Sequence record: ON286972
Strand: one strand, 5' to 3'
DNA length: 64,000 nucleotides
Source of the DNA: Escherichia phage A4
Below the pieces are notes generated by a model. It made no database searches. It had not been told where the DNA came from and worked only from the letters and a program-made list of their open reading frames with translations. Positions 5,239-19,871 of this stretch are shown here, in pieces. Made by a program: the position numbers and the translations under genes. How positions within the stretch are numbered: position 1 is the first letter of the stretch; every line of letters begins with the position of its first letter.

Positions 5239-5511
5239 ATGGATTATCGAGTACTGAATAGAACATATAAAGCTTTATACAAAACATATATTGAAAGTAA
5301 AGTACATAATCCTATCATTTATAAAAATCCAGTTTATATTATATGGAATGAATATTTTACAATGATTCAAAATTACTTTTACGCTAACGAAATCTTTATA
5401 GATGGTGAAATGCGTAAGCTAACACGCGTTGATAGTATAGGTGGTGAAATTGTGTTATTCTATACTGATTCTATTATTGGACAACAATCTATAAATTTAG
5501 AGATATTATAA
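5239..5511 (+). CDS. Small paralog family protein (array 1, member 1)
   Basis: ~90 aa; shares N-terminal Y/F-rich helix and central hydrophobic motif with neighbours. Confidence 0.55.
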   Translation: MDYRVLNRTYKALYKTYIESKVHNPIIYKNPVYIIWNEYFTMIQNYFYANEIFIDGEMRKLTRVDSIGGEIVLFYTDSIIGQQSINLEIL

Positions 5512-5777
5512 TGAATTATAAGGATTTACATTTCACCTATAAACTAACATTTTATATGTATCGTTACGCTGATAACAACTTCATGGATAATGCATTTTAT
5601 CATCGTTTGTGGAGTGATTATATAAATTCTTTACGTGAACATTTTATAGGTACTATAATTCAATACGAAGGTAAAACAGTAAAAATATTTCAAGTTGATA
5701 GTTACAACGGGGATCTATGCTTCAAGGGTAGAGATTCTAGTGATGGATTACATGAGATTTATATCTATGAATTATAA
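5511..5777 (+). CDS. Small paralog family protein (array 1, member 2)
   Basis: MNYKDLHFTYKL... HFIGT motif; TAATG overlap with upstream gene. Confidence 0.6.
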   Translation: MNYKDLHFTYKLTFYMYRYADNNFMDNAFYHRLWSDYINSLREHFIGTIIQYEGKTVKIFQVDSYNGDLCFKGRDSSDGLHEIYIYEL

Positions 5778-6042
5778 GGATTTACAATTCACGTACAAAA
5801 TTCTTCATGAACAATATGAACGTGGTGAAGGAATATTAACTTACGATGAACGAGATTTTTTTCTTACATTGTGGTGTGAATATTTGGCAATGATTAACGA
5901 GATTTTTGTTGATAAAGAATATATGATTGACGACATGACTGTACGTATTATCAGAATTAAAAGTTATAATGGAAGTCTTGTTGGAATTTACTATAACAAT
6001 GAAAAGGCGAAAAGCGGATTTGTTGATTTGGAGTACCTATGA
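5767..6042 (+). CDS. Small paralog family protein (array 1, member 3)
   Basis: Track ORF 5695-6042 trimmed to internal ATG 5767 giving MNYKDLQFTYKIL, matching paralog N-termini. Confidence 0.55.
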   Translation: MNYKDLQFTYKILHEQYERGEGILTYDERDFFLTLWCEYLAMINEIFVDKEYMIDDMTVRIIRIKSYNGSLVGIYYNNEKAKSGFVDLEYL

Positions 6043-6302
6043 ACTATAATGATTTACAATTCACGTATCAACTTTTATATGATGATATGAATAACGAACT
6101 AGGTTTCTATTATGAAGCACATAATAAAATATGGTCAAATTATCTATCTGAGATACAACATCATTTTATAGGACTTCCAATACGTAGAAATAATAAAAAC
6201 TATCGTTGTACTGATGTAGTAAGTCATAGAGGTAGGTTGCGTTTAGAATTCTACCGCAGAGACGGGGACTTCATTGGTATAAATTTACTGGATTTTAAAT
6301 GA
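6039..6302 (+). CDS. Small paralog family protein (array 1, member 4)
   Basis: MNYNDLQFTYQLL... HFIGL motif. Confidence 0.6.
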   Translation: MNYNDLQFTYQLLYDDMNNELGFYYEAHNKIWSNYLSEIQHHFIGLPIRRNNKNYRCTDVVSHRGRLRLEFYRRDGDFIGINLLDFK

Positions 6303-6586
6303 TGAAAAACAACTTAAAGGAAATACAAGTATTTTATAGATTCTTATACTTGTCATATGTAACAGATGAGTACTATGAAAGTGTATATTATTTTTTATGG
6401 CAACATTACCGTACTATAGTAAGAGATTTATATATAGGAAAATCTATCATATCCAATGGTGAAAAATGTACCTGTACTGATGTCGTTAGTTTTAATGGTT
6501 CTTTAACACTGTGTTTCATATGCGATAATAATAGTGGGTCATTTTCATTAAACGTATATCAGTTAGAAGGAATAAATTTTGAATAA
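6299..6586 (+). CDS. Small paralog family protein (array 1, member 5)
   Basis: ...LYIGKSIISNG... motif; ATGA overlap. Confidence 0.55.
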   Translation: MMKNNLKEIQVFYRFLYLSYVTDEYYESVYYFLWQHYRTIVRDLYIGKSIISNGEKCTCTDVVSFNGSLTLCFICDNNSGSFSLNVYQLEGINFE

Positions 6587-6779
6587 GTGTCCATATTGTA
6601 ACAGTACTCAATTAGCTCGTTTCCGCTTAGATTCAGACTGGGCCACTGGTGCTGGGGATTTCTTTCCCATCAATGATGATGCGGAATACACTGAAGAACA
6701 GCACAAAGATTTTGATAAATCATGGCGACCAGACATTGAGTGCATTTATTGCCTTAATTGTGAGCGTGTACATGACTAA
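6579..6779 (+). CDS. Small zinc-ribbon protein
   Basis: CPYC ... CIYCLNC cysteine pairs; TTG start, so start uncertain. Confidence 0.4.
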   Translation: MNKCPYCNSTQLARFRLDSDWATGAGDFFPINDDAEYTEEQHKDFDKSWRPDIECIYCLNCERVHD

Positions 6780-7035
6780 AGCTGAACTAATAGTTCATAC
6801 ATATAAAATGATAGCCAGTACTGAGTTATCCTGTGGTGCAGATAATCCAGTACTGGACTATTTTATAGAATCTTTGAAAGAACATTATATTGGTAAATCA
6901 CTGATTCTTAATAATATTAATTTCACTGTAAAGGATGTAGCACCTGGAAAAAACGTACTAATAGTATGTGTTACTTCATCTGATAACCCAGTATACCCAA
7001 TAACAATAATTTTTGAGGTATTAGGTGATTTATGA
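6772..7035 (+). CDS. Small paralog family protein (array 1, member 6)
   Basis: Track ORF 6649-7035 trimmed to ATG 6772 (ATGACTAA overlap); contains HYIGKSLIL motif. Confidence 0.5.
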   Translation: MTKAELIVHTYKMIASTELSCGADNPVLDYFIESLKEHYIGKSLILNNINFTVKDVAPGKNVLIVCVTSSDNPVYPITIIFEVLGDL

Positions 7036-7322
7036 ATATCATTTTAATACAGAAAACATATGCTATATTGGTGAAAGATTATTCCATTACTTTCGATTCA
7101 CAAGAAAGTGCTCTACATAACCTATACAAAAACGTATCACAAGAATACAGAAATATGTTTTCTGACTTAGTAGTAGGAAGATATTTCAGTACTAGAAAAT
7201 ATCCAAAACTTCAAGTAGAAGATGTTTCTTTTTATTTCAATGGTCATATTACTATTCATAGTTTAGACCAAAATTCACCAACGTACTTAAACTTTTCATT
7301 CGATGAGGTAACCTTTTTATGA
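7032..7322 (+). CDS. Small paralog family protein (array 1, member 7)
   Basis: Same length class and motif spacing (LVVGRYF). Confidence 0.5.
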   Translation: MNIILIQKTYAILVKDYSITFDSQESALHNLYKNVSQEYRNMFSDLVVGRYFSTRKYPKLQVEDVSFYFNGHITIHSLDQNSPTYLNFSFDEVTFL

Positions 7323-8561: not shown

Positions 8562-8840
8562 ATGAATTTACAAAGAGATGTGTGGACATATGAATATCTT
8601 TTAGAACTTTATGGTGATATGTATATTAAAAATAAACCATACATAGACGATATAAGGGCTATGATAGATGATTTTTCTTCTGAGTTTATTCCACTTTATA
8701 CTAATAAAGAAGTTACACATAAATCAATGAATAAATCAGGTATCATTGATGAAATTGATTTTGATACACATGGTGTATATTTTTATATTATTTTCTCCAA
8801 TGATACTGTTGGTATATACACGTATAAAGAATTAAAATAA
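8562..8840 (+). CDS. Hypothetical protein (92 aa)
   Basis: Track ORF followed by terminator. Confidence 0.5.
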   Translation: MNLQRDVWTYEYLLELYGDMYIKNKPYIDDIRAMIDDFSSEFIPLYTNKEVTHKSMNKSGIIDEIDFDTHGVYFYIIFSNDTVGIYTYKELK

Positions 8841-8845
8841 GTACA

Positions 8846-8872: not shown

Positions 8873-8883
8873 GTAGGTACATT

Positions 8884-9183
8884 ATGGACAAAATACAATT
8901 AGTTAGTAGTACGATAACAATGCTCGCAGATGCTGCCAGATGGAGCAGTGGTGGTTCCGTTAGTACTATGCTCAGTATACTCACGCAATACACCTATACC
9001 TGCAATGCAATGTTATATGGCAAGGAAGTTGAAATTGATGATCCCTATGGAATTCCCATATCATATGACCGAGGTGTAATAAAAAGGGTTACTATGAGAC
9101 TAACATATCATCCATATTTTGTAGTAGAACTTCCTGATGGAAAATTAAGAGAATATGTTGCTAAAAGGTTAAAACTAAAATGA
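8884..9183 (+). CDS. Hypothetical protein (99 aa)
   Basis: Track ORF. Confidence 0.5.
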   Translation: MDKIQLVSSTITMLADAARWSSGGSVSTMLSILTQYTYTCNAMLYGKEVEIDDPYGIPISYDRGVIKRVTMRLTYHPYFVVELPDGKLREYVAKRLKLK

Positions 9184-9758
9184 ATATTGTAGAATTAAGT
9201 ACTAAGCTGATTACTATGCGTAACGAGTGGTACAATTGGTATTATAACGGTACTGACATGGATTTTTCAAAATATCCATTTATGGAATCAGGATGTGATT
9301 CAAGATACCGCTGGTTGAGTAAAGATGATTCTGGTTTACATATTCGAGTTGATGATAGTGGTCAGGGAATTATAAAAGATTTACTTCAAGTTGAAGAACT
9401 CGTCCATGATGAGTGGTGTGATAATGATCCATACCTAGGAAATATAATTTATGTAACTGAAGATGATTGTATATTCGTCATTCAGCGTCATGGTGATTCT
9501 ATGTTTTATATAGCAGACAGCAGTACACCTGAAGGTGCAGCATCAGATGGTCTTATTCCTAAGATTAATATATTAGATTTTGGCTTACCTGAGCACTTCC
9601 AGATGAGTACTCTATTCGATATTCCACCGTTTGAGTTCTTTGAAGAATTTAAATTGTACTACAGTGATCTTCAGAAATTGAGTACCGAGAGTCGTATTGA
9701 AATAACTGTCAGGTACATGGACGGGGCAAAATTAACCGACACGGGGATAGAATTTTGA
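9180..9758 (+). CDS. Hypothetical protein (192 aa)
   Basis: Track ORF, ATGA overlap. Confidence 0.55.
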   Translation: MNIVELSTKLITMRNEWYNWYYNGTDMDFSKYPFMESGCDSRYRWLSKDDSGLHIRVDDSGQGIIKDLLQVEELVHDEWCDNDPYLGNIIYVTEDDCIFVIQRHGDSMFYIADSSTPEGAASDGLIPKINILDFGLPEHFQMSTLFDIPPFEFFEEFKLYYSDLQKLSTESRIEITVRYMDGAKLTDTGIEF

Positions 9759-10444
9759 TTAAAGATTTAGATAGAATTTTATATGTACTAAGGGGTGTAA
9801 TTACTTTACAACCACAGATTAACCGCATGGAGAGAGCCTTTGAATTAAAATCAAGAGAAACTCCATATTCACATATATCAAATGTAGTTGGATCATTCTG
9901 CTCTGAAGACTCTCCTTACGATATTTGTGTATGTGAAGTACAGCCCAGTAATGATCTTGGTTTTGCAATCTTCGATAAAAATCAAGTACTGGTCAGTATG
10001 TTTCAGTGTAATAATCCTTTCTGGAAAACATGCCTGTACCCTGATTGGGCTATGCTTGACCCTACGAATAGTAAGATTAAAGTATATGACTCTAAGAATG
10101 AAGAAGTTGTTATTGATTTAGATGAATCAATGACAGAGGAAGAACACTTCCAGCTTATGATGATGCGTGCAATGCCAGACTATGAAGCAATGATTAACAC
10201 CGTACAATACATTAAGGATACGATGAGATCATTGCGTACACATGAGTTTTGTCATCCAGTATCGTATGAACATTTGGATTTAGATTTCAGTACTATCAAG
10301 TTTAAAGATAGTGTTATTGAATATATCCAAGAGAACACTAAATTTGATTTTATTAGTACTATGATTAATAATCCTGATACAAATTTCAGGCATCAGTACA
10401 ATGAATCTTTGTCTGGTGGTCGAGATACCAGTTGGTGGAAATAA
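9755..10444 (+). CDS. Hypothetical protein (229 aa)
   Basis: Track ORF, overlap with upstream stop. Confidence 0.55.
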   Translation: MIKDLDRILYVLRGVITLQPQINRMERAFELKSRETPYSHISNVVGSFCSEDSPYDICVCEVQPSNDLGFAIFDKNQVLVSMFQCNNPFWKTCLYPDWAMLDPTNSKIKVYDSKNEEVVIDLDESMTEEEHFQLMMMRAMPDYEAMINTVQYIKDTMRSLRTHEFCHPVSYEHLDLDFSTIKFKDSVIEYIQENTKFDFISTMINNPDTNFRHQYNESLSGGRDTSWWK

Positions 10445-10445
10445 T

Positions 10446-10709
10446 ATGAATATCCAAGATAGATTGCAATTGTTGCACACACTTGAAGAAGCTGCTTTTG
10501 AACTTGTTAATAAAATTGCACAAGAACTCCCAAAAGGAACCAACGTTCGTGTTCGTGAAATGGATTATTTAACGGGAGAAATTGAAGAAAAAGTTCTAAC
10601 AGTGATCAAAGTAACATACTATGAATCAGAGTTATCAATTCAATGTAAGTCAGATAATGGTTACGTTTCCTACTATGGCACAGATGTAGATATAGAGGTA
10701 ATTAGATGA
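10446..10709 (+). CDS. Hypothetical protein
   Basis: Track ORF 10401-10709 trimmed to ATG 10446 just after the upstream stop. Confidence 0.45.
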   Translation: MNIQDRLQLLHTLEEAAFELVNKIAQELPKGTNVRVREMDYLTGEIEEKVLTVIKVTYYESELSIQCKSDNGYVSYYGTDVDIEVIR

Positions 10710-11851
10710 GTAATTTACGAGAAATATACAATGATTTAATGGAACTATGTGAATCTAATGATGCATTTTTCTATATAGATCACACAAGCCCTGGTGGTGG
10801 TTTATACCGTGTATTCACCTATCGTCTGGCATCTTATACCGATTTCACAAATAAAAATGCACTAGAAACTCGTGGTTCTATGTGGGAAATCGATTCCAAC
10901 GGAATTATGATTCGTTGTGCAGCACGTACAATGAAAAAGTTCTTCAATGCATATGAAAACCCGTACACAATGTTCAGTACTGATACGACATGTGATGATA
11001 TTGCAGTTGTAATGCCTAAACTTGATGGTTCTATCATCAGCACATTCCGTGATAACGATGGTGAAATCCGTTGCAAATCACACACTTCGTTATCTTCTGA
11101 CCATGCTATTAACAGTACTCGACTTTTGAACGAGAACCAAAATCTCTATCAATACATTGATGAAGCAGACCGTTTGGGCTATACTGTGAATCTGGAATAC
11201 ACAAGCCCAGAGTATCGAATTGTGTTACCATATCAGGTGGAACAGTTATTTGTTCTTAACGTTCGTCATCGTATTAGTGGTGAGTTGTTATGCGGTAAAG
11301 CACTACGTGATAAGTTTCCATGCCTTTCACAGTACAGTACTAATATGACAGGTAATGACATTCATCATACATTCCCGATTATGCCTACATTTAAAGAGTC
11401 AATCGATAAAGTACGTTCTATGATTGACATTGAAGGTTTTGTGTGTATAATGAAAGATGGTACAATGTGCAAAATCAAAACTGACTGGTATTGCTCTTTG
11501 CATTTAACAAAAGATTCCATTCTTATTGATTCCCATTTATATGAAGCTGTACTGACTGGTGCAAGTGATGACTTAAAACAATTGTTCAGTACTGATACAT
11601 ATGCAATGGATAAGATATTAAGAATGGAACAATTGGTATTTTCGTGCTATAATGCTTTACAAGATGAGGTAGAAAGCTTCGTCCATGCATACAAGCACTT
11701 AGAGCGAAAGGAATTCGCTCAAAAGGTTCAGCAAGATTTACCTAATGTATTGAACCGACAAGGCTTGGCCTTTGCGTTGTACAATGGCAAAAGTGTCGAT
11801 TATAAAGAGACTTTACTAAAGTACTACAAAGATGTACTAAAGGATTTTTAG
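10706..11851 (+). CDS. rnlA: RNA ligase 1 (T4 Rnl1-like)
   Basis: Extended similarity to recalled T4 RnlA: FFY.D..S..G...R.F.Y..AS, RG.MFE, KFFN..ENP, GYV..MKDG...KIK.DWY.SLH.TK, GASDDLK. Confidence 0.9.
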   Translation: MSNLREIYNDLMELCESNDAFFYIDHTSPGGGLYRVFTYRLASYTDFTNKNALETRGSMWEIDSNGIMIRCAARTMKKFFNAYENPYTMFSTDTTCDDIAVVMPKLDGSIISTFRDNDGEIRCKSHTSLSSDHAINSTRLLNENQNLYQYIDEADRLGYTVNLEYTSPEYRIVLPYQVEQLFVLNVRHRISGELLCGKALRDKFPCLSQYSTNMTGNDIHHTFPIMPTFKESIDKVRSMIDIEGFVCIMKDGTMCKIKTDWYCSLHLTKDSILIDSHLYEAVLTGASDDLKQLFSTDTYAMDKILRMEQLVFSCYNALQDEVESFVHAYKHLERKEFAQKVQQDLPNVLNRQGLAFALYNGKSVDYKETLLKYYKDVLKDF

Positions 11852-11880
11852 TACTAACTAGCCCAGCACAAGGAGAAGTG

Positions 11881-12135
11881 ATGGCTAAACCTAAGTATAA
11901 AAATGATGGTTCCCTTTCTCCTACTGAGTTCAGGAAAATACAACAAGAAATCGATGATTTACAGCACAAACGCTCAATGAAAGGTGTGAAGATTAGTAAG
12001 AAGCGAATCGAGAATACTTTTGGGTGTAGTAGTACTGAATATAAGAAGAAAAGGAAACCAAAGGATGTTAAGCCGAGAATACATGATGTAACTCGCTATA
12101 CATCGAAACGTGAAAATAAATTCGATCCACTATAA
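11881..12135 (+). CDS. Small basic protein (K/R-rich)
   Basis: ATG 5 nt after AAGGAG; track start GTG 11878 is adjacent. Confidence 0.5.
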   Translation: MAKPKYKNDGSLSPTEFRKIQQEIDDLQHKRSMKGVKISKKRIENTFGCSSTEYKKKRKPKDVKPRIHDVTRYTSKRENKFDPL

Positions 12136-12144
12136 GGAGTTCAT

Positions 12145-12381
12145 ATGAAAGTTGAAGTTCAGCATAGTATTGTTCAGGATATGTCAGTGGTTAAGTTTCT
12201 TTCTCTGAAAGATTACTTCAGATGTATCAAGTTCCTTGAAGAATCTCAATTACAGTGGACCCCCTTAAAGTACAGTTCATCCAATGACACTGCTAGTATT
12301 CGTTGTGATGAAGCTGTACTTGTAAAAATCTCCAAGCGATTTGGAGTTGGGAAATACAATGAAAAACAATCATTCAAGTGA
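12145..12381 (+). CDS. Hypothetical protein (78 aa)
   Basis: AAGGAG RBS, ATG start. Confidence 0.5.
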   Translation: MKVEVQHSIVQDMSVVKFLSLKDYFRCIKFLEESQLQWTPLKYSSSNDTASIRCDEAVLVKISKRFGVGKYNEKQSFK

Positions 12382-12613
12382 TTTGTTATATTATAAAGTA
12401 CTATCAGAATGTTTGACGGATATATTGTACCGTGAGAGTAATACTCTACGTGCAAAATATATTAACAAAAGAGTACGTTATAAATCATCTTATGATGGGA
12501 TGAATGTTTATGGTAAAATCACTAATGTATATGTAGATGATGATTTTACATTGAATATCATTGTCGATAATTGTATTGATATCTCAATTGATGATATTAT
12601 TGAGGTAATCTAA
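12359..12613 (+). CDS. Hypothetical protein
   Basis: Track ORF 12341-12613 trimmed to ATG 12359. Confidence 0.45.
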   Translation: MKNNHSSDLLYYKVLSECLTDILYRESNTLRAKYINKRVRYKSSYDGMNVYGKITNVYVDDDFTLNIIVDNCIDISIDDIIEVI

Positions 12614-12924
12614 TGAATAAAGCATTAAAAGAACTTAATAATTTAATGAATGCAGAAATTGAATTAACTAATACTATTTCTGAAATTGTTCATGATATGA
12701 TTACACAATACAAGAAATCACTCATTGGTAAGAAAGTTGAATGCTGGGATTACAACACTAAAACATGGTTCGAAACTATCATTAGTGATGTTAATGTTAA
12801 ATTTCATGTAGTTACTCATCACATTTCTGACGAGTGCTATGTAGAAGTAACTATAGGACACAACACGAGACATGAACGTTTTTCGTGGTACAATCTAAAG
12901 AATGTGAAATTTATTGAGGATTAA
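12613..12924 (+). CDS. Small paralog family-like protein
   Basis: Contains SLIGKKVECWDY motif shared with arrays 1 and 2. Confidence 0.5.
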   Translation: MNKALKELNNLMNAEIELTNTISEIVHDMITQYKKSLIGKKVECWDYNTKTWFETIISDVNVKFHVVTHHISDECYVEVTIGHNTRHERFSWYNLKNVKFIED

Positions 12925-13857
12925 ATGCCAACTATTACACTAACAGTTGGATTGCCAGGATGTGGTAAAACCACGTGGGCAGTGCAAGAAATTAAAAAAG
13001 CAAAGTCCAAGACTATCAACATCAATCGTGATGATATTCGAGAGTCTATGGCTGGGTCACATGATGCTTATAAATTCACTGATGCGAACGAGAAGTACGT
13101 AACTAATCAACAGTTCAGTGCAGCAAACGCAGCAGCAGCGAATGGATGGAACATTATTGTGTCCGATACGAACCTGAAACAAGGTTTTCGTGATGAATGG
13201 AAACGTTGGGCTAAAGATAATGGCTACGACTACAAAGAAAAGAACTTCTACGAAGATTTTGTACCGAATGAAGACCGTGGTGCAGATGTTCATGAATTCT
13301 TTAAGATTAAGGAATTCGTGAAGCTCTGTAAGAAACGCAACCTTCTTCGTGTGCGTTCAGTACAAGATGAAATCATTGACACTATGGCAGATACGTACTA
13401 TTATAGTAAGGCGATGCACATTGGTTACTATGGTAATGCACGTGAAGCTGCTATCATTGTTGATATCGACGGTACTCTTGCTCATAAGTGGGGACGTAAC
13501 CCGTTTGATGAAAGTACTGTCCTTCAGGATACACCAGATGAAGAAGTAATTCTGTCTGTCATTGCTGAGGCTGTTTTCCATAAGCGTAAGGTAATCGTCA
13601 TGAGTGGGCGTACTGAAGGGTGTCGTGCTGATACTGAACAGTGGCTTAAGAATTGGGGCATTCCCTACGATGTATTGTTAATGCGAGCTATCGATGATAA
13701 ACGTCCTGATGATGTTGTCAAATTCGAGTTGTATATGAATAACGTTGTTAATCATTACGATGTTAAGAAAGTATTTGATGACAGGGCCGCCGTTGTATTC
13801 ATGTGGCGTAAGCTACTAGGCTTGAAAGTATTTCAGGTGGAACCTGGACTATTTTGA
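12925..13857 (+). CDS. pseT: Polynucleotide 5'-kinase/3'-phosphatase (T4 Pnk-like)
   Basis: N-terminal P-loop GLPGCGKTTWA, NINRDD, and HAD-type phosphatase DIDGTLA with DDR..VV.MW; matches recalled T4 PseT. Confidence 0.9.
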   Translation: MPTITLTVGLPGCGKTTWAVQEIKKAKSKTININRDDIRESMAGSHDAYKFTDANEKYVTNQQFSAANAAAANGWNIIVSDTNLKQGFRDEWKRWAKDNGYDYKEKNFYEDFVPNEDRGADVHEFFKIKEFVKLCKKRNLLRVRSVQDEIIDTMADTYYYSKAMHIGYYGNAREAAIIVDIDGTLAHKWGRNPFDESTVLQDTPDEEVILSVIAEAVFHKRKVIVMSGRTEGCRADTEQWLKNWGIPYDVLLMRAIDDKRPDDVVKFELYMNNVVNHYDVKKVFDDRAAVVFMWRKLLGLKVFQVEPGLF

Positions 13858-13867
13858 TTATTACAAA

Positions 13868-13894
13868 GGGATCAGTACTGATCCCTTTTCTTTT
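13868..13894 (+). terminator. Rho-independent terminator
   Basis: Perfect hairpin gggatCAGTACTGatccc followed by TTTTCTTTT. Confidence 0.6.
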
Positions 13895-13909
13895 AATTTA
13901 GGTGATATA

Positions 13910-14170
13910 ATGGATAATAGTTATGATGTACATTTCAAACAATGCCAGTTGGTTTTACACTCCCTAATGGAAGAGTTGCGAATCAAGTACATAGGCAAAA
14001 TTGCTACATGTTTATCAACTGGAAGACGTGGGCAAATTGTAGAGATTTATTATTCTCCACTTAGTGATGAAATTAAAATAAAAGCTAAAATATTCCTAAC
14101 TGGATCTAACAATTTCTTGGGTGAACATATGGTAAAAATTATCTCTGAATTATCGATAACGGATGAATAA
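13910..14170 (+). CDS. Small paralog family protein (array 2)
   Basis: KYIGKIATC motif, ~86 aa. Confidence 0.55.
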   Translation: MDNSYDVHFKQCQLVLHSLMEELRIKYIGKIATCLSTGRRGQIVEIYYSPLSDEIKIKAKIFLTGSNNFLGEHMVKIISELSITDE

Positions 14171-14172
14171 AC

Positions 14173-14439
14173 ATGAATATTAATATAGATTTCCAATTTG
14201 TTAATTCACATATTCAAGTACTGAAAAATTTAGTAAAGCAACTATCAGAAAAATATAAAGATACATATGTTAAATGTGTTTATGATACAAGTGACTGGGA
14301 ACGCATTATTAAAATTGATTCAGTATATCTTGATACTAACAATAATATAGTTGTATCTGGCGTTGATATGTATGGGCATAGATACCAATTCACAACGCGA
14401 GCAACAATAACTACAGTGGATGGATATGAATACGAATGA
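14173..14439 (+). CDS. Small paralog family protein (array 2)
   Basis: Same size class and N-terminal helix pattern. Confidence 0.5.
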   Translation: MNINIDFQFVNSHIQVLKNLVKQLSEKYKDTYVKCVYDTSDWERIIKIDSVYLDTNNNIVVSGVDMYGHRYQFTTRATITTVDGYEYE

Positions 14440-14725
14440 ATTCCAAGCATTATTGAAAACATTATATCTTCTTAAAGAAGAATCTCTTGCAATGTATAAT
14501 GAAAAACAATACAAGTTTGAAGAACAACTCATTCATTTTCATGATGAATATCTTGCCTTTTTGAATAAAAAATACTCAAATGTTCAGTGCAAATATCGAG
14601 GTAGTGATGTTATTATTACCGAAATAGAATCAAGTACTTACGGATATCCATACCTTTGTTGCAAATATATCCCAAGTGATATAACATTTCGCTCAAGAAT
14701 ATATTCGAGGTTTATTTTTTCATGA
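14420..14725 (+). CDS. Small paralog family protein (array 2)
   Basis: Track ORF, overlaps upstream stop. Confidence 0.5.
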   Translation: MDMNTNEFQALLKTLYLLKEESLAMYNEKQYKFEEQLIHFHDEYLAFLNKKYSNVQCKYRGSDVIITEIESSTYGYPYLCCKYIPSDITFRSRIYSRFIFS

Positions 14726-15003
14726 ATAATGATTCATTGAAGTTTTTTTATTATCATTATCGTATTTTACGCAGTTTATATTTTTCAGAATCCGATGAAA
14801 GATTACTAACATCATTATCAGTACTGATGGATAATTACGAGAACGAATTGTCTAAATTGGTTTTTGGTGTCAATGTTCTAGATGATACCGATTTAACATG
14901 GACAATTATTGAAGTGGCGACCTGGAATGGTAATATTTTGTACAGGTGCGAACGAGCAGGTTTTTTATGGGATGCCACATATGACGAAATTAGAATTGTA
15001 TGA
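14722..15003 (+). CDS. Small paralog family protein (array 2)
   Basis: Track ORF, ATGA overlap. Confidence 0.5.
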   Translation: MNNDSLKFFYYHYRILRSLYFSESDERLLTSLSVLMDNYENELSKLVFGVNVLDDTDLTWTIIEVATWNGNILYRCERAGFLWDATYDEIRIV

Positions 15004-15280
15004 CAGGCAAGTGAAATTGATAAGAGATACTCGTCGTTTCTTTCATACTCAATTAGTAGATCCATGTTATGATATTTCCGATTTCCTTGAAACCTATCTC
15101 CTTGATCTAACTACACCACTGCTTAAAAAATACGTAGGCACAAAAGCTATATATCTTGGAAGAGAAGTTGAAATTACCAACATATCATATTCTTATGGGG
15201 CATACATGTATACGGCAAAATCTGATAATGGACAAAGATATTATGCAATACGATCAAGAGAACTTACGATTATTGGATAG
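14981..15280 (+). CDS. Small paralog family protein (array 2)
   Basis: Track ORF 14909-15280 trimmed to ATG 14981 (MTKLELYDRQ), contains YVGTKAIYLG. Confidence 0.45.
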   Translation: MTKLELYDRQVKLIRDTRRFFHTQLVDPCYDISDFLETYLLDLTTPLLKKYVGTKAIYLGREVEITNISYSYGAYMYTAKSDNGQRYYAIRSRELTIIG

Positions 15281-15572
15281 GCATCTTGCTATTCTTATCG
15301 ACCTTGTGATGGAAAGTGATGTAAAAATTTTTGAAAGTAGATTTCTTGAGGATTATAAAACTGAATTGCAAGAACTGTACAAAGGTAAAAAAGTATTACT
15401 TAGTACTGGTGACTATGGTAAAATTGAGTACGTGTATTATGAATGGAAAAAGGTTATATATTTTATAAAAACCAAAATAAAATACCAAAATAAAACAAGA
15501 ACCTATAAAGCATATTACGATTCAAATGAGATAGAGATTATATATGACCAACACGTTAATAACAAAAAGTGA
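15243..15572 (+). CDS. Small paralog family protein (array 2)
   Basis: Track ORF 15156-15572 trimmed to ATG 15243; contains LYKGKKVLLSTGDYG. Confidence 0.45.
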   Translation: MQYDQENLRLLDRHLAILIDLVMESDVKIFESRFLEDYKTELQELYKGKKVLLSTGDYGKIEYVYYEWKKVIYFIKTKIKYQNKTRTYKAYYDSNEIEIIYDQHVNNKK

Positions 15573-15867
15573 ATTAGATTATTTGAATTATATAAACAGA
15601 TACTTTCTGATTCTATATAATATACTTCTTGAAGAACAATGCACTAAATCAAACCATCAGTTATATAACTATATTAACTGTATAATTAGTGAAATATATG
15701 AATCATTGGAAAAGAGATTTAAGTACAGAACTATTAAGTGCGAAGATGATATTGTATATATTCATGGTGTTTTTGGTACAGGATATGGAATATTCGTTGA
15801 TTATAAAATACACCCATTTGATCCGTACATAGAAAATAGTATGTACATAGAAGAGATTGAACTATGA
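15544..15867 (+). CDS. Small paralog family protein (array 2)
   Basis: Track ORF. Confidence 0.5.
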   Translation: MTNTLITKSELDYLNYINRYFLILYNILLEEQCTKSNHQLYNYINCIISEIYESLEKRFKYRTIKCEDDIVYIHGVFGTGYGIFVDYKIHPFDPYIENSMYIEEIEL

Positions 15868-16181
15868 CACAAGAAGAATATAATAAATTAATAATGTACG
15901 AGAATCATTTTAATTATTGTCTGAAATGGTTATTGTACATTGATAACGTTGAGATGGATATGTACAGAAAAGAGGTGAATAAACGTGTTAAAGATTTCTA
16001 TTACGAATTGACTGATCTTTTTTATAATAATGTAGTATATGAAGCAAATACCAGTCGTGATTATGACCTTTATATCAAGCAAATATGGGGTACTGACTAC
16101 GGTCTGATGATTGATTGCAGTACTGGTCCTAATATAGACAGACCCAGTACTACATTGTATCTGGATGAGATTTTCATATGA
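15864..16181 (+). CDS. Small paralog family protein (array 2)
   Basis: Track ORF, ATGA overlap. Confidence 0.5.
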   Translation: MTQEEYNKLIMYENHFNYCLKWLLYIDNVEMDMYRKEVNKRVKDFYYELTDLFYNNVVYEANTSRDYDLYIKQIWGTDYGLMIDCSTGPNIDRPSTTLYLDEIFI

Positions 16182-16480
16182 ATGAACTATTACTTTGTCA
16201 TAAAACATACATTATGCTATTCAGAACGTGCCATGATATGCGAATTGAAGGTATACTAGACTACCCAACTATGATGATTAACTTCAGGGTGTTAATGGAT
16301 TCATATTCACAATCTGTCATTGATGCATTTGAAGGTAGAGAAATAAAGTTCAAAAATGCCAGGACAAATAATGAGCTATGTGATACAATTAAATCAGTGG
16401 GGATTTCGGTTCCAAATGTGTACGTAATCCCATTGATGTACGGAAGAGTAGTATCCACTAACGAAATTATTAGTATATGA
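16178..16480 (+). CDS. Small paralog family protein (array 2)
   Basis: Track ORF, ATGA overlap. Confidence 0.5.
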   Translation: MNELLLCHKTYIMLFRTCHDMRIEGILDYPTMMINFRVLMDSYSQSVIDAFEGREIKFKNARTNNELCDTIKSVGISVPNVYVIPLMYGRVVSTNEIISI

Positions 16481-16776
16481 TTAAAATATTATATGAAGCA
16501 GAAGAAACATATAAACTTCTGTGGGAAACTTTTATTTTTGACAAATACTATAATAGAACTGAATGGTTAGAGGTAAGTAAAATATATCTTCAAATTTTAA
16601 ATGATTATTTTTGTCCGTTCGTTGCTGAATGTAAAAATAATCCAATTGAAGAAATTAATATAATCGAAATAGTAGATGGGTTTGGTGCGTGGTTGATATA
16701 CCAAGACAACTATCACTTTTCTAATTATATCGAAGATATCGGTAAAATAATTGTAATTAAAGGAGTCATACTATGA
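16477..16776 (+). CDS. Small paralog family protein (array 2)
   Basis: Track ORF, ATGA overlap. Confidence 0.5.
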   Translation: MIKILYEAEETYKLLWETFIFDKYYNRTEWLEVSKIYLQILNDYFCPFVAECKNNPIEEINIIEIVDGFGAWLIYQDNYHFSNYIEDIGKIIVIKGVIL

Positions 16777-17378
16777 TTTATGCACTATACGTACTATACG
16801 TACTTGGTCTGGTTATTGGTTGGTTTTTGGCAAAATCTTACAACCGTAATGCACTGGCATACACAGTATTTGGTATTATTTTTACGCCAGTACTAGAACT
16901 AGGTTTACTCATTATTATGGGTCGCCGTGACATGACACCAGTCATTGACGATAATCGTGATAAAGCAGTACATGATGTACCCGTTTTTGAAGGATATACG
17001 CCAACTTTAACAGTTGATGACGTTTACATTGATGGTGCTGAAGAAGTTAAATCAGTTCAGGAAGAAGTTGAAGAAGTTCCAGTTAAAGAAGAACCACAAC
17101 CAAAAGCACCAACAACTAAAACAAAAGCAAAAACTTCTAAGAAAACGAAAGGTCGCAAGACTAGCACTAAAAATACCAAAAAAACCAGTACAACTCGCAA
17201 AAGCACTAAAACTGATAAGGAAGCATCTTCCAGTACTGATGATGGTACAAGCACTGTTCTACTGACAGCAGCAACAACTGCCGCAATTATCAGTACTTCA
17301 TCCTATAGCGACTCATCTTCCTCTTATGATAGTGGCTCTTGTGATAGTTCAAGCTCAAGTTCAGGAAGCTGTGATTAA
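16773..17378 (+). CDS. Membrane protein with low-complexity Lys/Thr/Ser-rich C-terminal region
   Basis: Two N-terminal hydrophobic helices, then KTKAKTSKKTKGRKTSTK and SSYSDSSSSYDSGSCDSSSSSSGSCD. Confidence 0.55.
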   Translation: MIYALYVLYVLGLVIGWFLAKSYNRNALAYTVFGIIFTPVLELGLLIIMGRRDMTPVIDDNRDKAVHDVPVFEGYTPTLTVDDVYIDGAEEVKSVQEEVEEVPVKEEPQPKAPTTKTKAKTSKKTKGRKTSTKNTKKTSTTRKSTKTDKEASSSTDDGTSTVLLTAATTAAIISTSSYSDSSSSYDSGSCDSSSSSSGSCD

Positions 17379-17722
17379 TGGTTCCGTTATCATCTGAACT
17401 AAGGTACTTCGAATCTCTCCTTGATCTTCAATCAGAATTCGTTAGTGCCTTAAAAAATAAATTAATAGGCAAAAAAGTAAAATTCACTCAAGAGTATATT
17501 GACCACATCAATAAGGCTAAGGAGGATGAAGTAGATTCTGACTGGATTTATTGTGATGATGAAGCTTCTCATATCAACGAAAATACAGTTATGTTTATTA
17601 CTTTGTTGCGAGTAAAGAATTCATCAATCTATGTTGATGTGGAATATGAAAATCCAAAAAGTTCTGAATGGTACGGATTCACTTACCGTTTAGATCGTTT
17701 AGAACTAATAGAAGAGGAATAA
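17378..17722 (+). CDS. Small paralog family-like protein
   Basis: KLIGKKVKF motif. Confidence 0.5.
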   Translation: MVPLSSELRYFESLLDLQSEFVSALKNKLIGKKVKFTQEYIDHINKAKEDEVDSDWIYCDDEASHINENTVMFITLLRVKNSSIYVDVEYENPKSSEWYGFTYRLDRLELIEEE

Positions 17723-17965
17723 ATGATTTTATTTTTTGCTTTGTATGGTGTAGGAGTACTGAGTACATTTTTGAGTACTTTTCTTATCATCAATTGGGGT
17801 TCTTTTAAAGATACCCCTACCACAATGATTAATATTAGTACCTGCTCTATGTTATCAGTACTGTGGCCTGTGTCGTTGGTGTATCTTTTCATTTCAATCT
17901 GTAAAGATTTTTACGATACACTAACAAAATTCAAGAAGAAGAAACATGACAAAGACGGAAATTGA
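17723..17965 (+). CDS. Small membrane protein (80 aa)
   Basis: Two hydrophobic segments. Confidence 0.5.
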   Translation: MILFFALYGVGVLSTFLSTFLIINWGSFKDTPTTMINISTCSMLSVLWPVSLVYLFISICKDFYDTLTKFKKKKHDKDGN

Positions 17966-18200
17966 ACAGTTAAAGATGTTACAATCGTTATCTGATGATT
18001 TTGTCCAACGTGCTAAGCACAAATATATTGGTCAAGAAATTCTTCTTAAACACTCCAGAGGTTGGCAAAAAATATGCATAAGAGATATGGGAACATATCA
18101 TGGTGATGTGCGATATTACGTAGATTGCTATGTTAATGACCAAATTGCCAATACTCAAGTTGTCACCTATGATAAAATTATATGGATTAAAGAACAATGA
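17946..18200 (+). CDS. Small paralog family-like protein
   Basis: KYIGQEILL motif. Confidence 0.5.
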   Translation: MTKTEIEQLKMLQSLSDDFVQRAKHKYIGQEILLKHSRGWQKICIRDMGTYHGDVRYYVDCYVNDQIANTQVVTYDKIIWIKEQ

Positions 18201-18940
18201 AACATTTCTTAGAAGTAACAGTTCCTGATGAAAAAGATTTGTATATAGTAGGAGACATTCACGGTAATGCAAAACTATGGGAACATACCAAGAAAGAATT
18301 TGGTATTACTCCTGAAGATTATGTATTCAGTTTAGGCGATTTAATTGACAGAGGTGAGCAAAGTGCTCACCTTTTGTTTGAGTTTTTATTCGCTGAGAAT
18401 CGATATATGATCATGGGCAATCATGAATCGATGTGTATTGATTCTGCAACTCATCGTGACTGGTATCATTGCTGGACACAGAATGGGGGCGATAAGTTCC
18501 TGGAAGAAGTTGGTGTATCAGGAGTGGAATTCTTCCGTCAGTACTTGGACCAGCTACCTATGATTATCCAAATCAATCACAGAGGACTCAAGATTGGTCT
18601 TGTACATGCAGGTGTAGATCTGAAGTACAATGACTGGAATAAGTTCATTACTGGGACAAAATCAATGTCCAGTGATACAATTGAGTCATGCCTATGGGAC
18701 AGAAAGACATTTGATTTCTGTAAAGCCAACAACGTCTTTAATGCATCACGTATTACCAACGTAGATTATGTACTTAGTGGGCATACTGCCGTGTTTGATC
18801 CCCTCATTTATGGTAACCGTATCTGGATTGACAGTCAGTTTCTTACTGGTGATTTGACTATTGCTACCCCACAAGGTGGTAAGATGCGTTATTTGCGTAA
18901 AGAAAAAGACGAATATTCATTTAGTCGATTCAAAAGGTAA
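18197..18940 (+). CDS. Ser/Thr protein phosphatase (PPP family, lambda-phosphatase-like)
   Basis: GDIHGN, GDLIDRG and GNHE metallophosphatase signature motifs. Confidence 0.8.
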   Translation: MKHFLEVTVPDEKDLYIVGDIHGNAKLWEHTKKEFGITPEDYVFSLGDLIDRGEQSAHLLFEFLFAENRYMIMGNHESMCIDSATHRDWYHCWTQNGGDKFLEEVGVSGVEFFRQYLDQLPMIIQINHRGLKIGLVHAGVDLKYNDWNKFITGTKSMSSDTIESCLWDRKTFDFCKANNVFNASRITNVDYVLSGHTAVFDPLIYGNRIWIDSQFLTGDLTIATPQGGKMRYLRKEKDEYSFSRFKR

Positions 18941-18945
18941 TTATT

Positions 18946-19224
18946 ATGCATGACATGATTGATAGTGCATTAACCGAATTTAACTTTTTTAAAAAATCAC
19001 TCGATGCAATAATCAATGATACCAACCAACAAATGAAAGACCATTTAAGTGATAAATTGGTTGGTCGTTGGGTTGAGCTACCATATATAGATGGAACTAC
19101 TGTTGGTGTGATTCATAGAATTGTAACAATTCATGAAGTGAAGGTGTATGTTGAAATTCTGGTTGACAATGAAACTAACAAATGTTTTGTACAATTAAGT
19201 ACTGAAGATTTAACTTTTTTATAA
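18946..19224 (+). CDS. Small paralog family-like protein
   Basis: KLVGRWVELPYIDG motif. Confidence 0.5.
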   Translation: MHDMIDSALTEFNFFKKSLDAIINDTNQQMKDHLSDKLVGRWVELPYIDGTTVGVIHRIVTIHEVKVYVEILVDNETNKCFVQLSTEDLTFL

Positions 19225-19233
19225 GGATATAAA

Positions 19234-19461
19234 ATGAAAGTAATTTATGTTCAGGTTGAAAAATATCAAACTGAAGATGGTCGCATTTTTGATTCAGCTA
19301 AACAAGCTGAGCATCATGAACGTATTATTTCTGGTGTTCGTCGCATTTGTCCTAAATGTAACGGAACACAACAAGTTCCCGATGAAGAATTTCGTCGCTA
19401 TTATGCATGTCCAGATTGTGATGGTAAAGGATATGTAGAAAAACAAGAGGTATGGAAGTGA
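19234..19461 (+). CDS. Small zinc-ribbon protein
   Basis: CPKCNG ... CPDCDGKG cysteine pairs. Confidence 0.5.
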   Translation: MKVIYVQVEKYQTEDGRIFDSAKQAEHHERIISGVRRICPKCNGTQQVPDEEFRRYYACPDCDGKGYVEKQEVWK

Positions 19462-19871
19462 AACTATATTGCTTAACAAACATGTACTGTCAGGGTGTTC
19501 AGGCTGGAGTTCAGGCATTTCATGCTGGTATTAAACTTGTCAAAGAGTATGAAGGTTCAGTATTCAGTACTCTAATCGATGAATGGTATAATGAGCACGA
19601 AACTATTGTAATCCTCAATGCTGGCAACCAAGATAAATTAACCACTCACTATGAGAATCTATCCAAACAGGGCAAGGTTCCATTTGCTAAATTCAATGAA
19701 CCAGGTTTGAACGATACCCTCACTAGTGTAGCAGTATTATGCACTGAAGAAATGATTGATGACATGGCACTGATGCGTACTAACGACCCAATGACTGATT
19801 TACAGCTATGTCACAAATACGGTCATATGTACGAAACACTAAAAGCTATGAGTACAATGAGGACTATTTGA
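19452..19871 (+). CDS. Hypothetical protein (139 aa)
   Basis: Track ORF. Confidence 0.5.
   Translation: MEVKLYCLTNMYCQGVQAGVQAFHAGIKLVKEYEGSVFSTLIDEWYNEHETIVILNAGNQDKLTTHYENLSKQGKVPFAKFNEPGLNDTLTSVAVLCTEEMIDDMALMRTNDPMTDLQLCHKYGHMYETLKAMSTMRTI

What the first reader, a model, noticed from the sequence alone, without database searches (positions are those of the whole stretch)
12613..19224. Second, larger array of the same or a related small-protein family
At least a dozen further ~85-110 aa ORFs around rnlA/pseT and between pseT and the phosphatase share the central motif (SLIGKKVECW, KYIGKIATC, KLIGKKVKF, KYIGQEILL, KLVGRWVEL). With the first array this makes roughly twenty members in this window, a substantial share of its coding capacity.
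Basis: seen in the sequence. Interest (0 to 1): 0.5.

Follow-up and report, generated by a model that had tools for sequence, protein, structure and literature searches.

The report
Tandem arrays of SH3-like phage proteins
A jumbo E. coli phage carries about two dozen very divergent copies of one small protein (one or two helices followed by an SH3/Tudor-like beta-barrel) in two tandem arrays around its RNA-repair genes; the family is real and undescribed, its function is unknown, and I infer a host-interaction role.

Summary
Between 12613 and 19224 there are 14 co-directional ORFs of 84-114 aa, and all five quoted motif strings are present. The motif is not compositional. It occurs 14 times in the small array proteins, against 1.1±1.0 in shuffles and 0 of 29 small proteins elsewhere in the window.

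Profile-profile comparison, an HMM search with reversed decoys and two AlphaFold models all show one divergent family of about 24 members (10.6% of the window). Each member has one or two N-terminal helices followed by a five-stranded SH3/Tudor-like barrel. The motif is the junction between the last helix and strand 1.

There are two subfamilies. The long-N type makes up array 1 and the 14420-16776 block. The short-N type lies around pseT and the phosphatase.

The family is confined to Asteriusvirus, Alcyoneusvirus and related Erwinia jumbo phages, and within 121Q almost entirely to the syntenic 13 kb. Members show 27-45% identity, or have no orthologue, where the neighbouring enzymes show 76-90%. 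Close relatives nevertheless show purifying selection. The orthologous genes are absent from the phAPEC6 virion proteome.

No function is known. The best guess is non-virion accessory binding proteins for host takeover or counter-defence. The finding is solid but moderately interesting.

The parts
10401..10709 (+). Probable family member (102 aa) just upstream of rnlA; weaker support
   Evidence: Included by the iterated HMM with 0 decoys. Best hhalign P=0.0067. 79% identical to its 121Q orthologue.
12359..12613 (+). Family member, short-N subfamily (84 aa; YINKRV at the junction)
   Evidence: hhalign P=5e-6 to 17378-17722 and 7e-5 to 17946. Called as an 84-aa gene on public contigs.
12613..12924 (+). 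Family member, short-N subfamily (103 aa; SLIGKKVECW)
   Evidence: hhalign P=4e-5 to 17946, 7e-5 to 17378 and 6e-4 to 18946. Matches phrog_31355, unknown function. The exact protein is on 11 public contigs.
12925..13857 (+). pseT polynucleotide kinase/phosphatase; not a member; conserved anchor gene
   Evidence: 90% aa identity to 121Q PseT. Pfam AAA_33 and HAD_PNKP.
13865..13888 (+). Terminator-like hairpin between pseT and the core of array 2, 21 nt before the next start codon
13910..14170 (+). Family member, short-N (86 aa; KYIGKIATC); no orthologue in 7 relatives
   Evidence: Included by the HMM. hhalign P=0.0023 to 12359.
14173..14439 (+). Family member, short-N (88 aa; YKDTYV)
   Evidence: 9 hhalign partners at P<0.01, all of them candidates. 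Matches phrog_33398, unknown function.
14420..14725 (+). Family member, long-N/array-1 type (101 aa); lineage-specific
   Evidence: E=1.3e-5 to an HMM built from array 1 only. No tblastn hit in 50,697 phage genomes.
14722..15003 (+). Family member, long-N (93 aa; VFGVNV); mixed support
   Evidence: Array-1 HMM E=1.3e-3. Included. Its orthologue P0004 aligns well in A3. hhalign alone is not significant.
14972..15280 (+). Family member, long-N (102 aa; KKYVGTKAIYLGREV)
   Evidence: Start codon taken from P0020. No tblastn hit in phage genomes.
15228..15572 (+). Family member, long-N (114 aa; LYKGKKVLL)
   Evidence: Start codon taken from P0027.
15544..15867 (+). Family member, long-N, Gly replaced by Tyr (107 aa)
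   Evidence: hhalign P=1e-5 to 15864. Weak match to phrog_34190. Included.
15864..16181 (+). Family member, long-N, Gly replaced by Asn (105 aa)
   Evidence: Matches phrog_34190 at E=7e-11..
16178..16480 (+). Probable member (100 aa; FEGREIKF); weak support
   Evidence: Best hhalign P=0.0086. Included. No orthologue in relatives.
16477..16776 (+). Probable member, long-N (99 aa; Gly replaced by Pro)
   Evidence: Array-1 HMM E=3.4e-3. hhalign P=0.0029 to the array-1 core. Dropped in the last HMM iteration.
16773..17378 (+). Not a member: 201-aa protein with N-terminal hydrophobic helices and a K/T/S-rich low-complexity tail
   Evidence: Sequence. 41% identical to 121Q gene 451.
17378..17722 (+). 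Family member, short-N with a long loop insertion (114 aa; KLIGKKVKF)
   Evidence: hhalign probability 86, P=5e-6 to 12359. Cross-hit to phrog_31355, the PHROG family of 12613.
17723..17965 (+). Not a member: 80-aa small membrane protein
   Evidence: Sequence. A similar small membrane protein follows array 1 at 7319-7501.
17946..18200 (+). Family member, short-N (84 aa; KYIGQEILL); hub of the similarity network and the protein modelled
18197..18940 (+). NinI-like Ser/Thr phosphatase; not a member; conserved anchor gene
   Evidence: 76% identical to 121Q gene 455.
18946..19224 (+). Family member, short-N (92 aa; KLVGRWVEL)
   Evidence: hhalign P=6e-4 to 12613 and 1.9e-3 to 7032. Matches phrog_38615, unknown function.
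5239..7322 (+). Array 1: seven long-N members (5239-5511, 5511-5777, 5767-6042, 6039-6302, 6299-6586, 6772-7035, 7032-7322) plus a zinc-ribbon ORF at 6579-6779
8562..8840 (+). Isolated probable member (92 aa)
   Evidence: Included. hhalign P=0.0047 to 12359.

Best explanation
The span holds the larger of two tandem arrays of one lineage-specific, very divergent paralogous family (about 24 genes in the window).

Each product is a small, mostly acidic-to-neutral cytoplasmic protein. It has one N-terminal helix (short-N subfamily) or a helical hairpin (long-N subfamily), followed by a five-stranded SH3/Tudor-like beta-barrel. The 'central motif' (two hydrophobic residues, Gly, a basic residue, x, a hydrophobic residue) is a structural element. 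It caps the last helix and starts strand 1.

The genes are co-directional and mostly overlap by 4 nt. The Shine-Dalgarno sequence of each gene is often written into the conserved acidic C-terminal codons of the gene before it. From this I infer that they are made as a polycistronic, translationally coupled set.

Shown or predicted here: family membership, the predicted fold, the layout, the restriction to one phage lineage, purifying selection among close relatives, deep divergence or replacement between lineages, and absence of the orthologous genes from a related virion proteome.

Inferred: the proteins are non-structural accessory factors. The conserved barrel would serve as a scaffold, and the variable, indel-rich loops would bind different host (or phage) macromolecules. 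Under this reading they form a set of host-takeover or counter-defence binders kept in a plastic region beside the RNA-repair genes rnlA and pseT.

Confidence is about 0.9 for family and fold and about 0.4 for the binder mechanism.
For: Family.
- The array-1-only HMM ranks array-2 proteins first.
- In the hhalign matrix, 14.7% of candidate-candidate pairs have P<0.01, against 0.7-0.8% for controls. Twelve pairs have P<1e-3, against none for controls. Mann-Whitney p=2.6e-30.
- The short-N subfamily has 14 of 21 pairs at P<0.01. Between subfamilies the figure is 11 of 84.
- An HMM built from the 23 window cores finds 31 proteins of related phages at E<1e-3 with 0 reversed decoys.
- In the whole 121Q genome, every hit but one falls in the syntenic 196.2-209.4 kb.

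Fold.
- The two models have pLDDT 84.4 and 91.4.
- G29 and G47 both lie between the last helix and strand 1.

Layout. 4-nt overlaps, with GAGG-type Shine-Dalgarno sequences inside the C-terminal codons.

Evolution.
- Members show 27-45% identity, or have no orthologue, where RnlA, PseT, the phosphatase and the ligase show 76-90%.
- Six to seven central genes have no orthologue in 7 relatives.
- The 13900-16800 block has no blastn match, and two of its proteins have no tblastn match, in 50,697 phage genomes.
- Pooled dN/dS among close relatives is 0.15-0.29, against 0.11-0.16 for the neighbouring genes.

Not structural. phAPEC6 gp360-gp399 do not appear in the virion proteome table.

Not enzymatic. 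No Pfam, NCBIfam or PADLOC family matches.

Charge. Median pI is 5.7 and most members are acidic. This argues weakly against general nucleic-acid binding.
Against: - There are no expression, interaction or phenotype data for any member in any phage, so the functional part is inference from fold, context and evolutionary pattern.
- The models rest on shallow alignments of paralogues (15 and 19 sequences). Only two members were modelled, and no long-N member of array 2 was modelled.
- Three to four members (14722, 16178, 16477, 10401) pass only some of the tests.
- dN/dS is below 1, so there is no direct signature of an arms race.
- SH3/Tudor/KOW/LSm-like barrels bind nucleic acids as often as proteins.
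- The arrays sit next to RNA-repair enzymes, which fits an RNA-related role equally well.
Confidence: 0.5

Rival explanations
1. The proteins are RNA- or DNA-binding LSm/KOW/Tudor-like factors. They would act as chaperones or regulators of transcripts or tRNA, working with the adjacent RNA-repair module (rnlA, pseT, Pth-like hydrolase) or on RNA polymerase, rather than as binders of diverse host proteins.
For: [quoted passage not shown] A GoF mutant stabilises an mRNA (PMC12152347).
- Synteny with rnlA and pseT is conserved across genera.
Against: - Most members are acidic (median pI 5.7, net charge down to -11).
- No Pfam LSM or KOW match.
- No sequence relation to GoF, MotB.1 or MotB.
- A single conserved nucleic-acid function would not obviously need about 24 copies that share under 25% identity.
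Confidence: 0.22
2. The ORFs are not one homologous family. They would be unrelated small proteins that converged on a common helix-plus-small-barrel architecture and share a generic helix-to-strand junction motif.
For: - BLASTP finds no significant pair within array 2.
- The same junction motif draws chance hits in plant ribosomal protein eS7 and a WD40 protein, and it occurs in the window's own DNA ligase.
- PHROGs places the members in about 12 separate families.
Against: - The whole-length profile-profile signal is far above that of controls of the same size and composition from the same operon-rich genome.
- There are 0 reversed decoys among 89 HMM hits.
- Hits are confined to the syntenic arrays out of 1,040 ORFs of 121Q.
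- Tandem position and equal length are what duplication predicts.
Confidence: 0.06
3. The genes are largely dispensable filler: selfish or neutral duplicated ORFs kept in a recombination-tolerant region, with no specific molecular target.
For: - Gene content in this region differs between close relatives (10 genes between pseT and 16773 here, 7 in 121Q).
- GC is lowest here (0.29).
- 121Q has about 100 kb of small genes of unknown function and other tandem arrays.
Against: - Pooled dN/dS of 0.15-0.29 among close relatives shows that the protein sequences are under purifying selection.
- Reading frames are intact and tightly coupled.
- Family positions are conserved from Asteriusvirus to RaK2 and an Erwinia phage.
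Confidence: 0.12
4. The proteins are morphogenetic or virion-associated, for example decoration or fibre-adaptor subunits or assembly chaperones.
Against: None of phAPEC6 gp360-gp399, which cover both arrays, is among the 62 virion proteins found by mass spectrometry. The arrays lie in a nucleotide- and RNA-metabolism region, far from the structural modules.
Confidence: 0.05

Closest known systems
T4 GoF / MotB.1 / Frd.2 'LSm-like fold' early proteins of Tevenvirinae (Kim et al. 2025, PMC12152347)
   Different: There is no detectable sequence relation. In T4 the barrel is N-terminal with a variable C-terminal domain, whereas here it is C-terminal after one or two helices. T4 has three scattered genes, whereas here there are about 24 in two tandem arrays.
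Sm/LSm/Hfq fold
   Different: There is no Pfam LSM match and no Sm1/Sm2 motif detected. Ring formation was not tested. Long-N members have a helical hairpin rather than a single helix. Most members are acidic.
Tudor / chromo / BAH / PWWP ('Royal') and KOW domains, including bacterial CarD, UvrD and PcrA Tudor-like RNA-polymerase-binding domains
   Different: Sequence identity is 4-21% and no Pfam hit was found. An aromatic cage and RNA-polymerase binding were not tested. This is a resemblance of fold only.
Lineage-specific expansions in other jumbo phages, such as the ~35-copy zinc-ribbon expansion of Bacillus phage G (PMC7824862), the 'nearly 10% paralogues' of RaK2 (PMC3622015) and the 22 paralogous ORFs of CBB (PMC5259590)
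   Same: These are also multi-copy small-protein families of unknown role in jumbo phage genomes. 121Q itself has RCC1-like and ~60-aa ORF arrays.
   Different: The fold is different. None of those papers describes this family, and PHROGs splits it into about 12 families of unknown function.

Membership tests
   The array-1-only HMM gives 14420 E=1.3e-5, 14722 1.3e-3, 16477 3.4e-3 and 17946 0.019, and all top non-seed hits lie in the arrays. In hhalign, 7 of 45 comparisons between array 1 and array 2 have P<0.01, against a null of about 0.8%. This is met for the set as a whole. For 16178 and 12613 the link is only indirect, through other members.
The window's array-1 small-protein family | Architecture: N-terminal helix or helices, an hhG[KR]xh junction, then a small beta-barrel, in 84-120 aa | tested here: met
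   The models of 17946-18200 (H3-27, five strands) and 5511-5777 (H3-18, H24-45, four strands plus a short helix) place G29 and G47 at the helix/strand-1 junction. All 26 candidates align in register at the junction. Only two members were modelled.
The window's array-1 small-protein family | Tandem, co-directional arrangement in the syntenic rnlA-pseT-phosphatase region | tested here: met
   The same positions are occupied in JP4, 121Q, Turkey5, JNE01, RaK2 and Hallingskeid.
T4 GoF/MotB.1/Frd.2 LSm-like family | Bent five-stranded antiparallel SH3/LSm-like barrel | tested here: met
T4 GoF/MotB.1/Frd.2 LSm-like family | Sequence-profile relatedness to GoF, MotB.1 or Frd.2 | tested here: not met
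   hmmsearch and hhalign of the A4 profile against T4 GoF, MotB.1 and MotB give E of 0.18 or worse and probability below 1%. Frd.2 was not fetched.
T4 GoF/MotB.1/Frd.2 LSm-like family | Barrel at the N-terminus followed by a linker and a variable C-terminal domain | tested here: not met
   Here the barrel is C-terminal and ends the protein.
T4 GoF/MotB.1/Frd.2 LSm-like family | Early expression and non-essentiality | not testable with these tools
   No transcriptome or genetics for Asteriusvirus-like phages was found in the library.
Sm/LSm/Hfq | Sm1/Sm2 sequence motifs (Pfam LSM) | tested here: not met
   No Pfam match at E≤1 for the 20 members scanned.
Sm/LSm/Hfq | Hexameric or heptameric ring assembly | not testable with these tools
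   No multimer prediction was available.
KOW / Tudor / chromo domains | Family-specific sequence signature (Pfam KOW, Tudor, Chromo and so on) | tested here: not met
   No Pfam hit. PDB sequence searches with the A3 and A4 profiles found no such domain.
KOW / Tudor / chromo domains | SH3-like barrel fold | tested here: met
Known anti-defence or defence protein families (PADLOC) and NCBIfam | Profile match | tested here: not met
   No members match in NCBIfam. In PADLOC there is one chance-level match, to a methyltransferase model.

The most novel reading that the evidence does not exclude
The arrays are a diversified 'binder repertoire'. Each paralogue would use the variable loops of a common SH3/Tudor-like scaffold to neutralise a different host factor, for example anticodon nucleases and other abortive-infection or defence effectors that the neighbouring RnlA/PseT repair module also counters. 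Whole cassettes would be swapped between phage lineages to track host immunity. This would be a phage counterpart of a variable-receptor gene family.
Probability: 0.15. Interest if true: 0.75.

Novelty: new member of a known kind. Interest (0 to 1): 0.45.

Why it matters
Most genes of jumbo phages are 'hypothetical', and roughly 100 kb of 121Q is made of small genes of unknown function. Here about 24 such genes in this phage, at least 15 in 121Q and at least 10 in RaK2 are shown to be one fold family (helix plus SH3/Tudor-like barrel) with two subfamilies. That collapses a dozen PHROGs of unknown function into one testable unit and gives a profile for annotating them.

The family has four properties typical of host-takeover and counter-defence genes:
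- It evolves under constraint within a lineage.
- It is replaced wholesale between lineages.
- It sits in a conserved slot beside the RNA-repair genes.
- Its orthologues in phAPEC6 are absent from the virion proteome.

That makes it a defined candidate set for screens for host-takeover or anti-defence proteins. In itself, the existence of a lineage-specific paralogue expansion in a jumbo phage is expected rather than surprising.

Tried and rejected
- BLASTP all-against-all found no significant pair within array 2, so profile methods were needed. The first hhalign matrix timed out.
- The search for homologous proteins with alignments A1 and A2 returned only near-identical proteins of the same phage lineage. 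One call failed on an evalue limit.
- The search for related loci in viral contigs returned only 121Q.
- The exhaustive HMM search of 1.84 billion representatives gave 23 hits. All were same-lineage proteins except a WD40 repeat protein (P0017), which I rejected as a repeat-driven false positive.
- The PDB sequence search hit plant eS7 at E=8e-5. The score is the sum of two helix-to-strand junctions of 13 and 11 bits, so I rejected it as homology.
- A relationship to T4 GoF, MotB.1 or MotB was rejected at the sequence level.
- The compositional-artefact explanation was rejected.
- A virion role is disfavoured.
- Whole-gene positive selection was not found. dN/dS between this phage and 121Q, JP4 or Turkey5 is unusable because dS is saturated.
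- DNA-level repeats exist only at the 5' ends of three array-1 genes, with none in array 2.
- Sigma-70-like promoter matches are not enriched: 88 found against 89.4 expected.
- There are no tRNA genes in the window.
- No paper in the library describes the family or gives a transcriptome for this phage group.


Full report
**Context.** The window is part of a jumbo myovirus related to Escherichia phages 121Q, PBECO4 and JP4 (genus Asteriusvirus), but it is not one of the deposited genomes. Only 28% of 12000-20000 aligns to them, at about 84% DNA identity. PseT is 90% identical in protein to that of 121Q, 63% to Klebsiella phage RaK2 and about 58% to Cronobacter phage GAP32. The exact protein encoded at 12613-12924 is found on 11 public contigs. 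One of them is a 358,987-nt contig in an E. coli assembly (GCA_011911785.2), and several are SRA assemblies. Gene order around the finding is conserved in all the relatives: cytidyltransferase, small ORFs, rnlA, small ORFs, pseT, small ORFs, NinI-like phosphatase, small ORF, DnaJ-type zinc-finger protein, Pth-like hydrolase, DNA ligase. Every small ORF is annotated 'hypothetical protein'.

**Observation check.** Inside 12613-19224 there are 14 + strand ORFs of 84-114 aa, with two more just upstream at 10401 and 12359. When the ORFs are anchored on the motif, all 26 candidates from both arrays line up in the same way. An amphipathic helix ends in two hydrophobic residues. Then comes Gly (D, N, S, A, Y or P in ten of the 26), then usually K/R/T, x and a hydrophobic residue, then beta-strand-like alternation. 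The proteins end in a second conserved element, [DE][DE]-h-x-h-h. A regex for the central motif hits 14 times in the 30 small proteins of 5.2-19.3 kb. Shuffles give 1.06±1.0 (maximum 6 in 2000). None of 29 small proteins elsewhere in the window has it, and the rate per residue is 11 times that of the remaining proteome. The motif is therefore not an artefact of AT-rich coding.

**Is it one family?** BLASTP sees clear similarity only within array 1 (E down to 8e-9) and nothing significant within array 2. Profile methods do better.
- An HMM built only from five array-1 proteins ranks array-2 proteins as its best non-seed hits: 14420-14725 at E=1.3e-5, then 14722, 16477, 17946, 14981 and 15243.
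- I fetched syntenic loci from seven relatives and built orthologue-group profiles. I then ran all 1,485 hhalign comparisons among 22 candidate groups and 33 control small proteins of the same window. Of the candidate-candidate pairs, 14.7% have P<0.01 and 12 have P<1e-3. Candidate-control and control-control pairs behave as the null predicts (0.7-0.8% and none). Mann-Whitney p=2.6e-30.
- The strongest links are 12359~17378 (P=5e-6), 15544~15864 (1e-5), array-1 core~6772-7035 (4e-5), 12613~17946 (4e-5), 17946~6772-7035 (5.5e-4) and 12613~18946 (6e-4).
- An HMM of the 23 trimmed window cores (alignment A4) was searched against 406 ORFs of the window and seven relatives plus their reversed copies. 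It finds 54 proteins at E<1e-3, of which 31 are from other phages, with no decoy. On iteration it reaches 89 members: window 23, 121Q 14, JP4 13, JNE01 13, Turkey5 12, RaK2 10, Erwinia phage Hallingskeid 4, GAP32 0. Still no decoy appears.
- In a six-frame scan of the complete 121Q genome (1,040 ORFs), every hit of the window-only HMM at E<0.01 lies in 196.2-209.4 kb, the syntenic arrays. The one exception is gene 376, at 173.6 kb.
- An independent cross-check comes from PHROGs: 17378-17722 also hits phrog_31355, the PHROG family of 12613-12924.
- Support is uneven. 14722, 16178, 16477 and 10401 pass only some of the tests, and 7482-7766 and 8884-9183 pass none.

**Fold.**
- AlphaFold2 on 17946-18200, with the 15 array-2 paralogues as alignment, gives pLDDT 84.4. 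The model has a helix at 3-27 followed by five strands.
- The array-1 protein 5511-5777 gives pLDDT 91.4. It has helices at 3-18 and 24-45, then strands at 49-52, 55-65, 68-75 and 80-84.
- In both models the motif glycine (G29, G47) lies exactly between the last helix and strand 1. The 'central motif' is therefore a fold-determining junction, not an active site.
- Against predicted viral structures, the best matches are uncharacterised 121Q and RaK2 proteins (TM 0.65-0.71 at 13% identity). Weak matches to T4-type MotB proteins follow.

**Anatomy.** Two subfamilies emerge.
- Short-N members have a single helix, with the Gly at residue 29-40. They are 12359, 12613, 13910, 14173, 17378, 17946 and 18946, and 14 of their 21 pairs have P<0.01.
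- Long-N members have a helical hairpin, with the Gly at about residue 45-60. They are all of array 1 plus 14420-16776.
- Links between the two subfamilies are also in excess: 11 of 84 pairs at P<0.01.
- Array 2 is therefore composite. Short-N genes flank pseT and the phosphatase, and a central block of eight long-N genes is of the array-1 type.
- Non-members in the span are pseT, a 201-aa membrane/low-complexity protein (16773-17378), an 80-aa membrane protein (17723-17965) and the phosphatase.
- Genes are co-directional, and most overlap the next by 4 nt (ATGA). The C-terminal acidic motif is often encoded by GAG-GTx or GAT-GAG, which doubles as the Shine-Dalgarno sequence of the next gene.
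- Terminator-like hairpins at 5199-5220, 8845-8867 and 13865-13888 each sit about 20 nt before the next start codon.
- The 24 members cover 6,809 nt, or 10.6% of the window.

**Evolution.**
- Against 121Q, JP4 and Turkey5, the neighbouring enzymes are 76-90% identical. Family members are 27-45% identical or have no detectable orthologue.
- 13910, 14420, 14722, 14981, 15243 and 16178 are singletons among seven relatives, and 15544 has only a 27%-identity match.
- The 13900-16800 block has no blastn match in 50,697 phage genomes. Two of its proteins have no tblastn match there either.
- This block also has the lowest G+C of the window, 0.29.
- Among close relatives, where dS is not saturated, pooled dN/dS is 0.15-0.29 for family genes and 0.11-0.16 for the other genes. 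The proteins are thus under purifying selection that is only mildly relaxed, and there is no whole-gene positive selection.
- The pattern is constraint within lineages and replacement or turnover between them.
- A patch at 6299-7500 is 91-96% identical to 121Q with dS 0.06-0.10. This shows recent recombination inside array 1.
- In 1.84 billion cluster representatives, the family profile finds only proteins of this phage lineage.

**Function.**
- No Pfam, NCBIfam or PADLOC family matches. PHROGs spreads the members over about 12 families, all of unknown function.
- The phAPEC6 orthologues of both arrays are gp361c-gp389c. No gp360-gp399 appears in that phage's table of 62 virion proteins found by mass spectrometry. 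A structural role is therefore unlikely.
- Members are mostly acidic or neutral, with a median pI of 5.7.
[quoted passage not shown] They were recognised by profile searches and AlphaFold as a family with an SH3/LSm-like barrel, and their function is still unclear (PMC12152347). The present family shows no sequence relation to GoF, MotB.1 or MotB, and its barrel is at the other end of the protein.
- Reviews and genome papers on this phage group mention paralogues only in general terms and do not describe this family.

**Most likely mechanism (inference).** These are non-virion accessory proteins made as translationally coupled sets. The conserved helix-barrel scaffold would carry variable, indel-rich loops that bind different host or phage macromolecules. 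I favour protein targets, meaning host takeover or counter-defence. The reasons are the acidic charge, the number and divergence of the copies, and the turnover between lineages in a plastic region next to the RnlA/PseT module, which the phAPEC6 paper suggests might counter Prr (anticodon-nuclease) abortive infection. An RNA- or RNA-polymerase-binding role in the manner of LSm, KOW or Tudor domains is the main rival. Convergence, neutral filler and morphogenetic roles are less likely.

**Novelty and verdict.** It is an undescribed family, but of a known kind: a lineage-specific expansion of small SH3-like proteins in a large phage. Interest is moderate. The family offers a defined candidate set and a usable profile, but there is no mechanism yet and nothing that overturns expectation.

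Noticed in passing
window 6299-7500: These genes are 91-96% identical in protein to 121Q with dS 0.06-0.10, while genes on either side have dS of about 1. This looks like a recent recombination patch inside array 1.
   Followed up: partly
window 7319-7501 and 17723-17965: A small hydrophobic membrane protein (60 and 80 aa) directly follows a family member in each array. The two are only weakly similar (hhalign P=0.0057).
   Followed up: partly
window 16773-17378: A 201-aa protein with N-terminal hydrophobic helices, a K/T/S-rich low-complexity middle and a poly-Ser/Cys C-terminus. It holds the same position in 121Q (gene 451, 41% identity).
   Followed up: no
window 6579-6779: A 66-aa ORF (TTG start) with two CxxC pairs, zinc-ribbon-like, embedded in array 1. 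It is annotated as a gene in 121Q (gene 427) and in JP4.
   Followed up: no
window 19234-19461: A 75-aa protein with CxxCxG...CxxCxGxG, a DnaJ-type zinc finger. It is annotated 'chaperone protein (DnaJ-like)' in 121Q and is followed by a Pth-like hydrolase.
   Followed up: no
window 5190-19240, the gene junctions: The conserved acidic C-terminal motif of the family is often encoded by GAG-GTx or GAT-GAG codons. These double as the Shine-Dalgarno sequence of the next gene, which overlaps by 4 nt. This is a dual coding constraint.
   Followed up: partly
window 5199-5220, 8845-8867, 13865-13888: Terminator-like hairpins lie only about 20 nt upstream of the next start codon, leaving no room for a promoter. 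They may be attenuators, processing sites or RNA-stabilising elements.
   Followed up: no
L017 (121Q 117-135 kb): 121Q has other tandem arrays: 13 RCC1-like 'DNA condensation' genes on the minus strand, followed by about 17 consecutive ORFs of about 60 aa.
   Followed up: no
L018 (121Q 173592-173900, gene 376): This is the only clear family member outside the two arrays in the whole 121Q genome (E=4.8e-5 in the genome-wide scan with the window-only HMM).
   Followed up: partly
window 21077-22495 (DNA ligase, residues ~405-416): The ligase carries the same 'ELIGKVVTIE' helix-to-strand junction motif. Ribosomal protein eS7 and a WD40 protein have it too. The motif alone is therefore not diagnostic of the family.
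   Followed up: yes
window 46203-52240: Three adjacent genes (894, 196 and 913 aa) are paralogues (BLASTP E=7e-53 and about 1e-15 to 1e-18). Three genes at 52309-53882 are also paralogous. These are further tandem duplications in the window.
   Followed up: no
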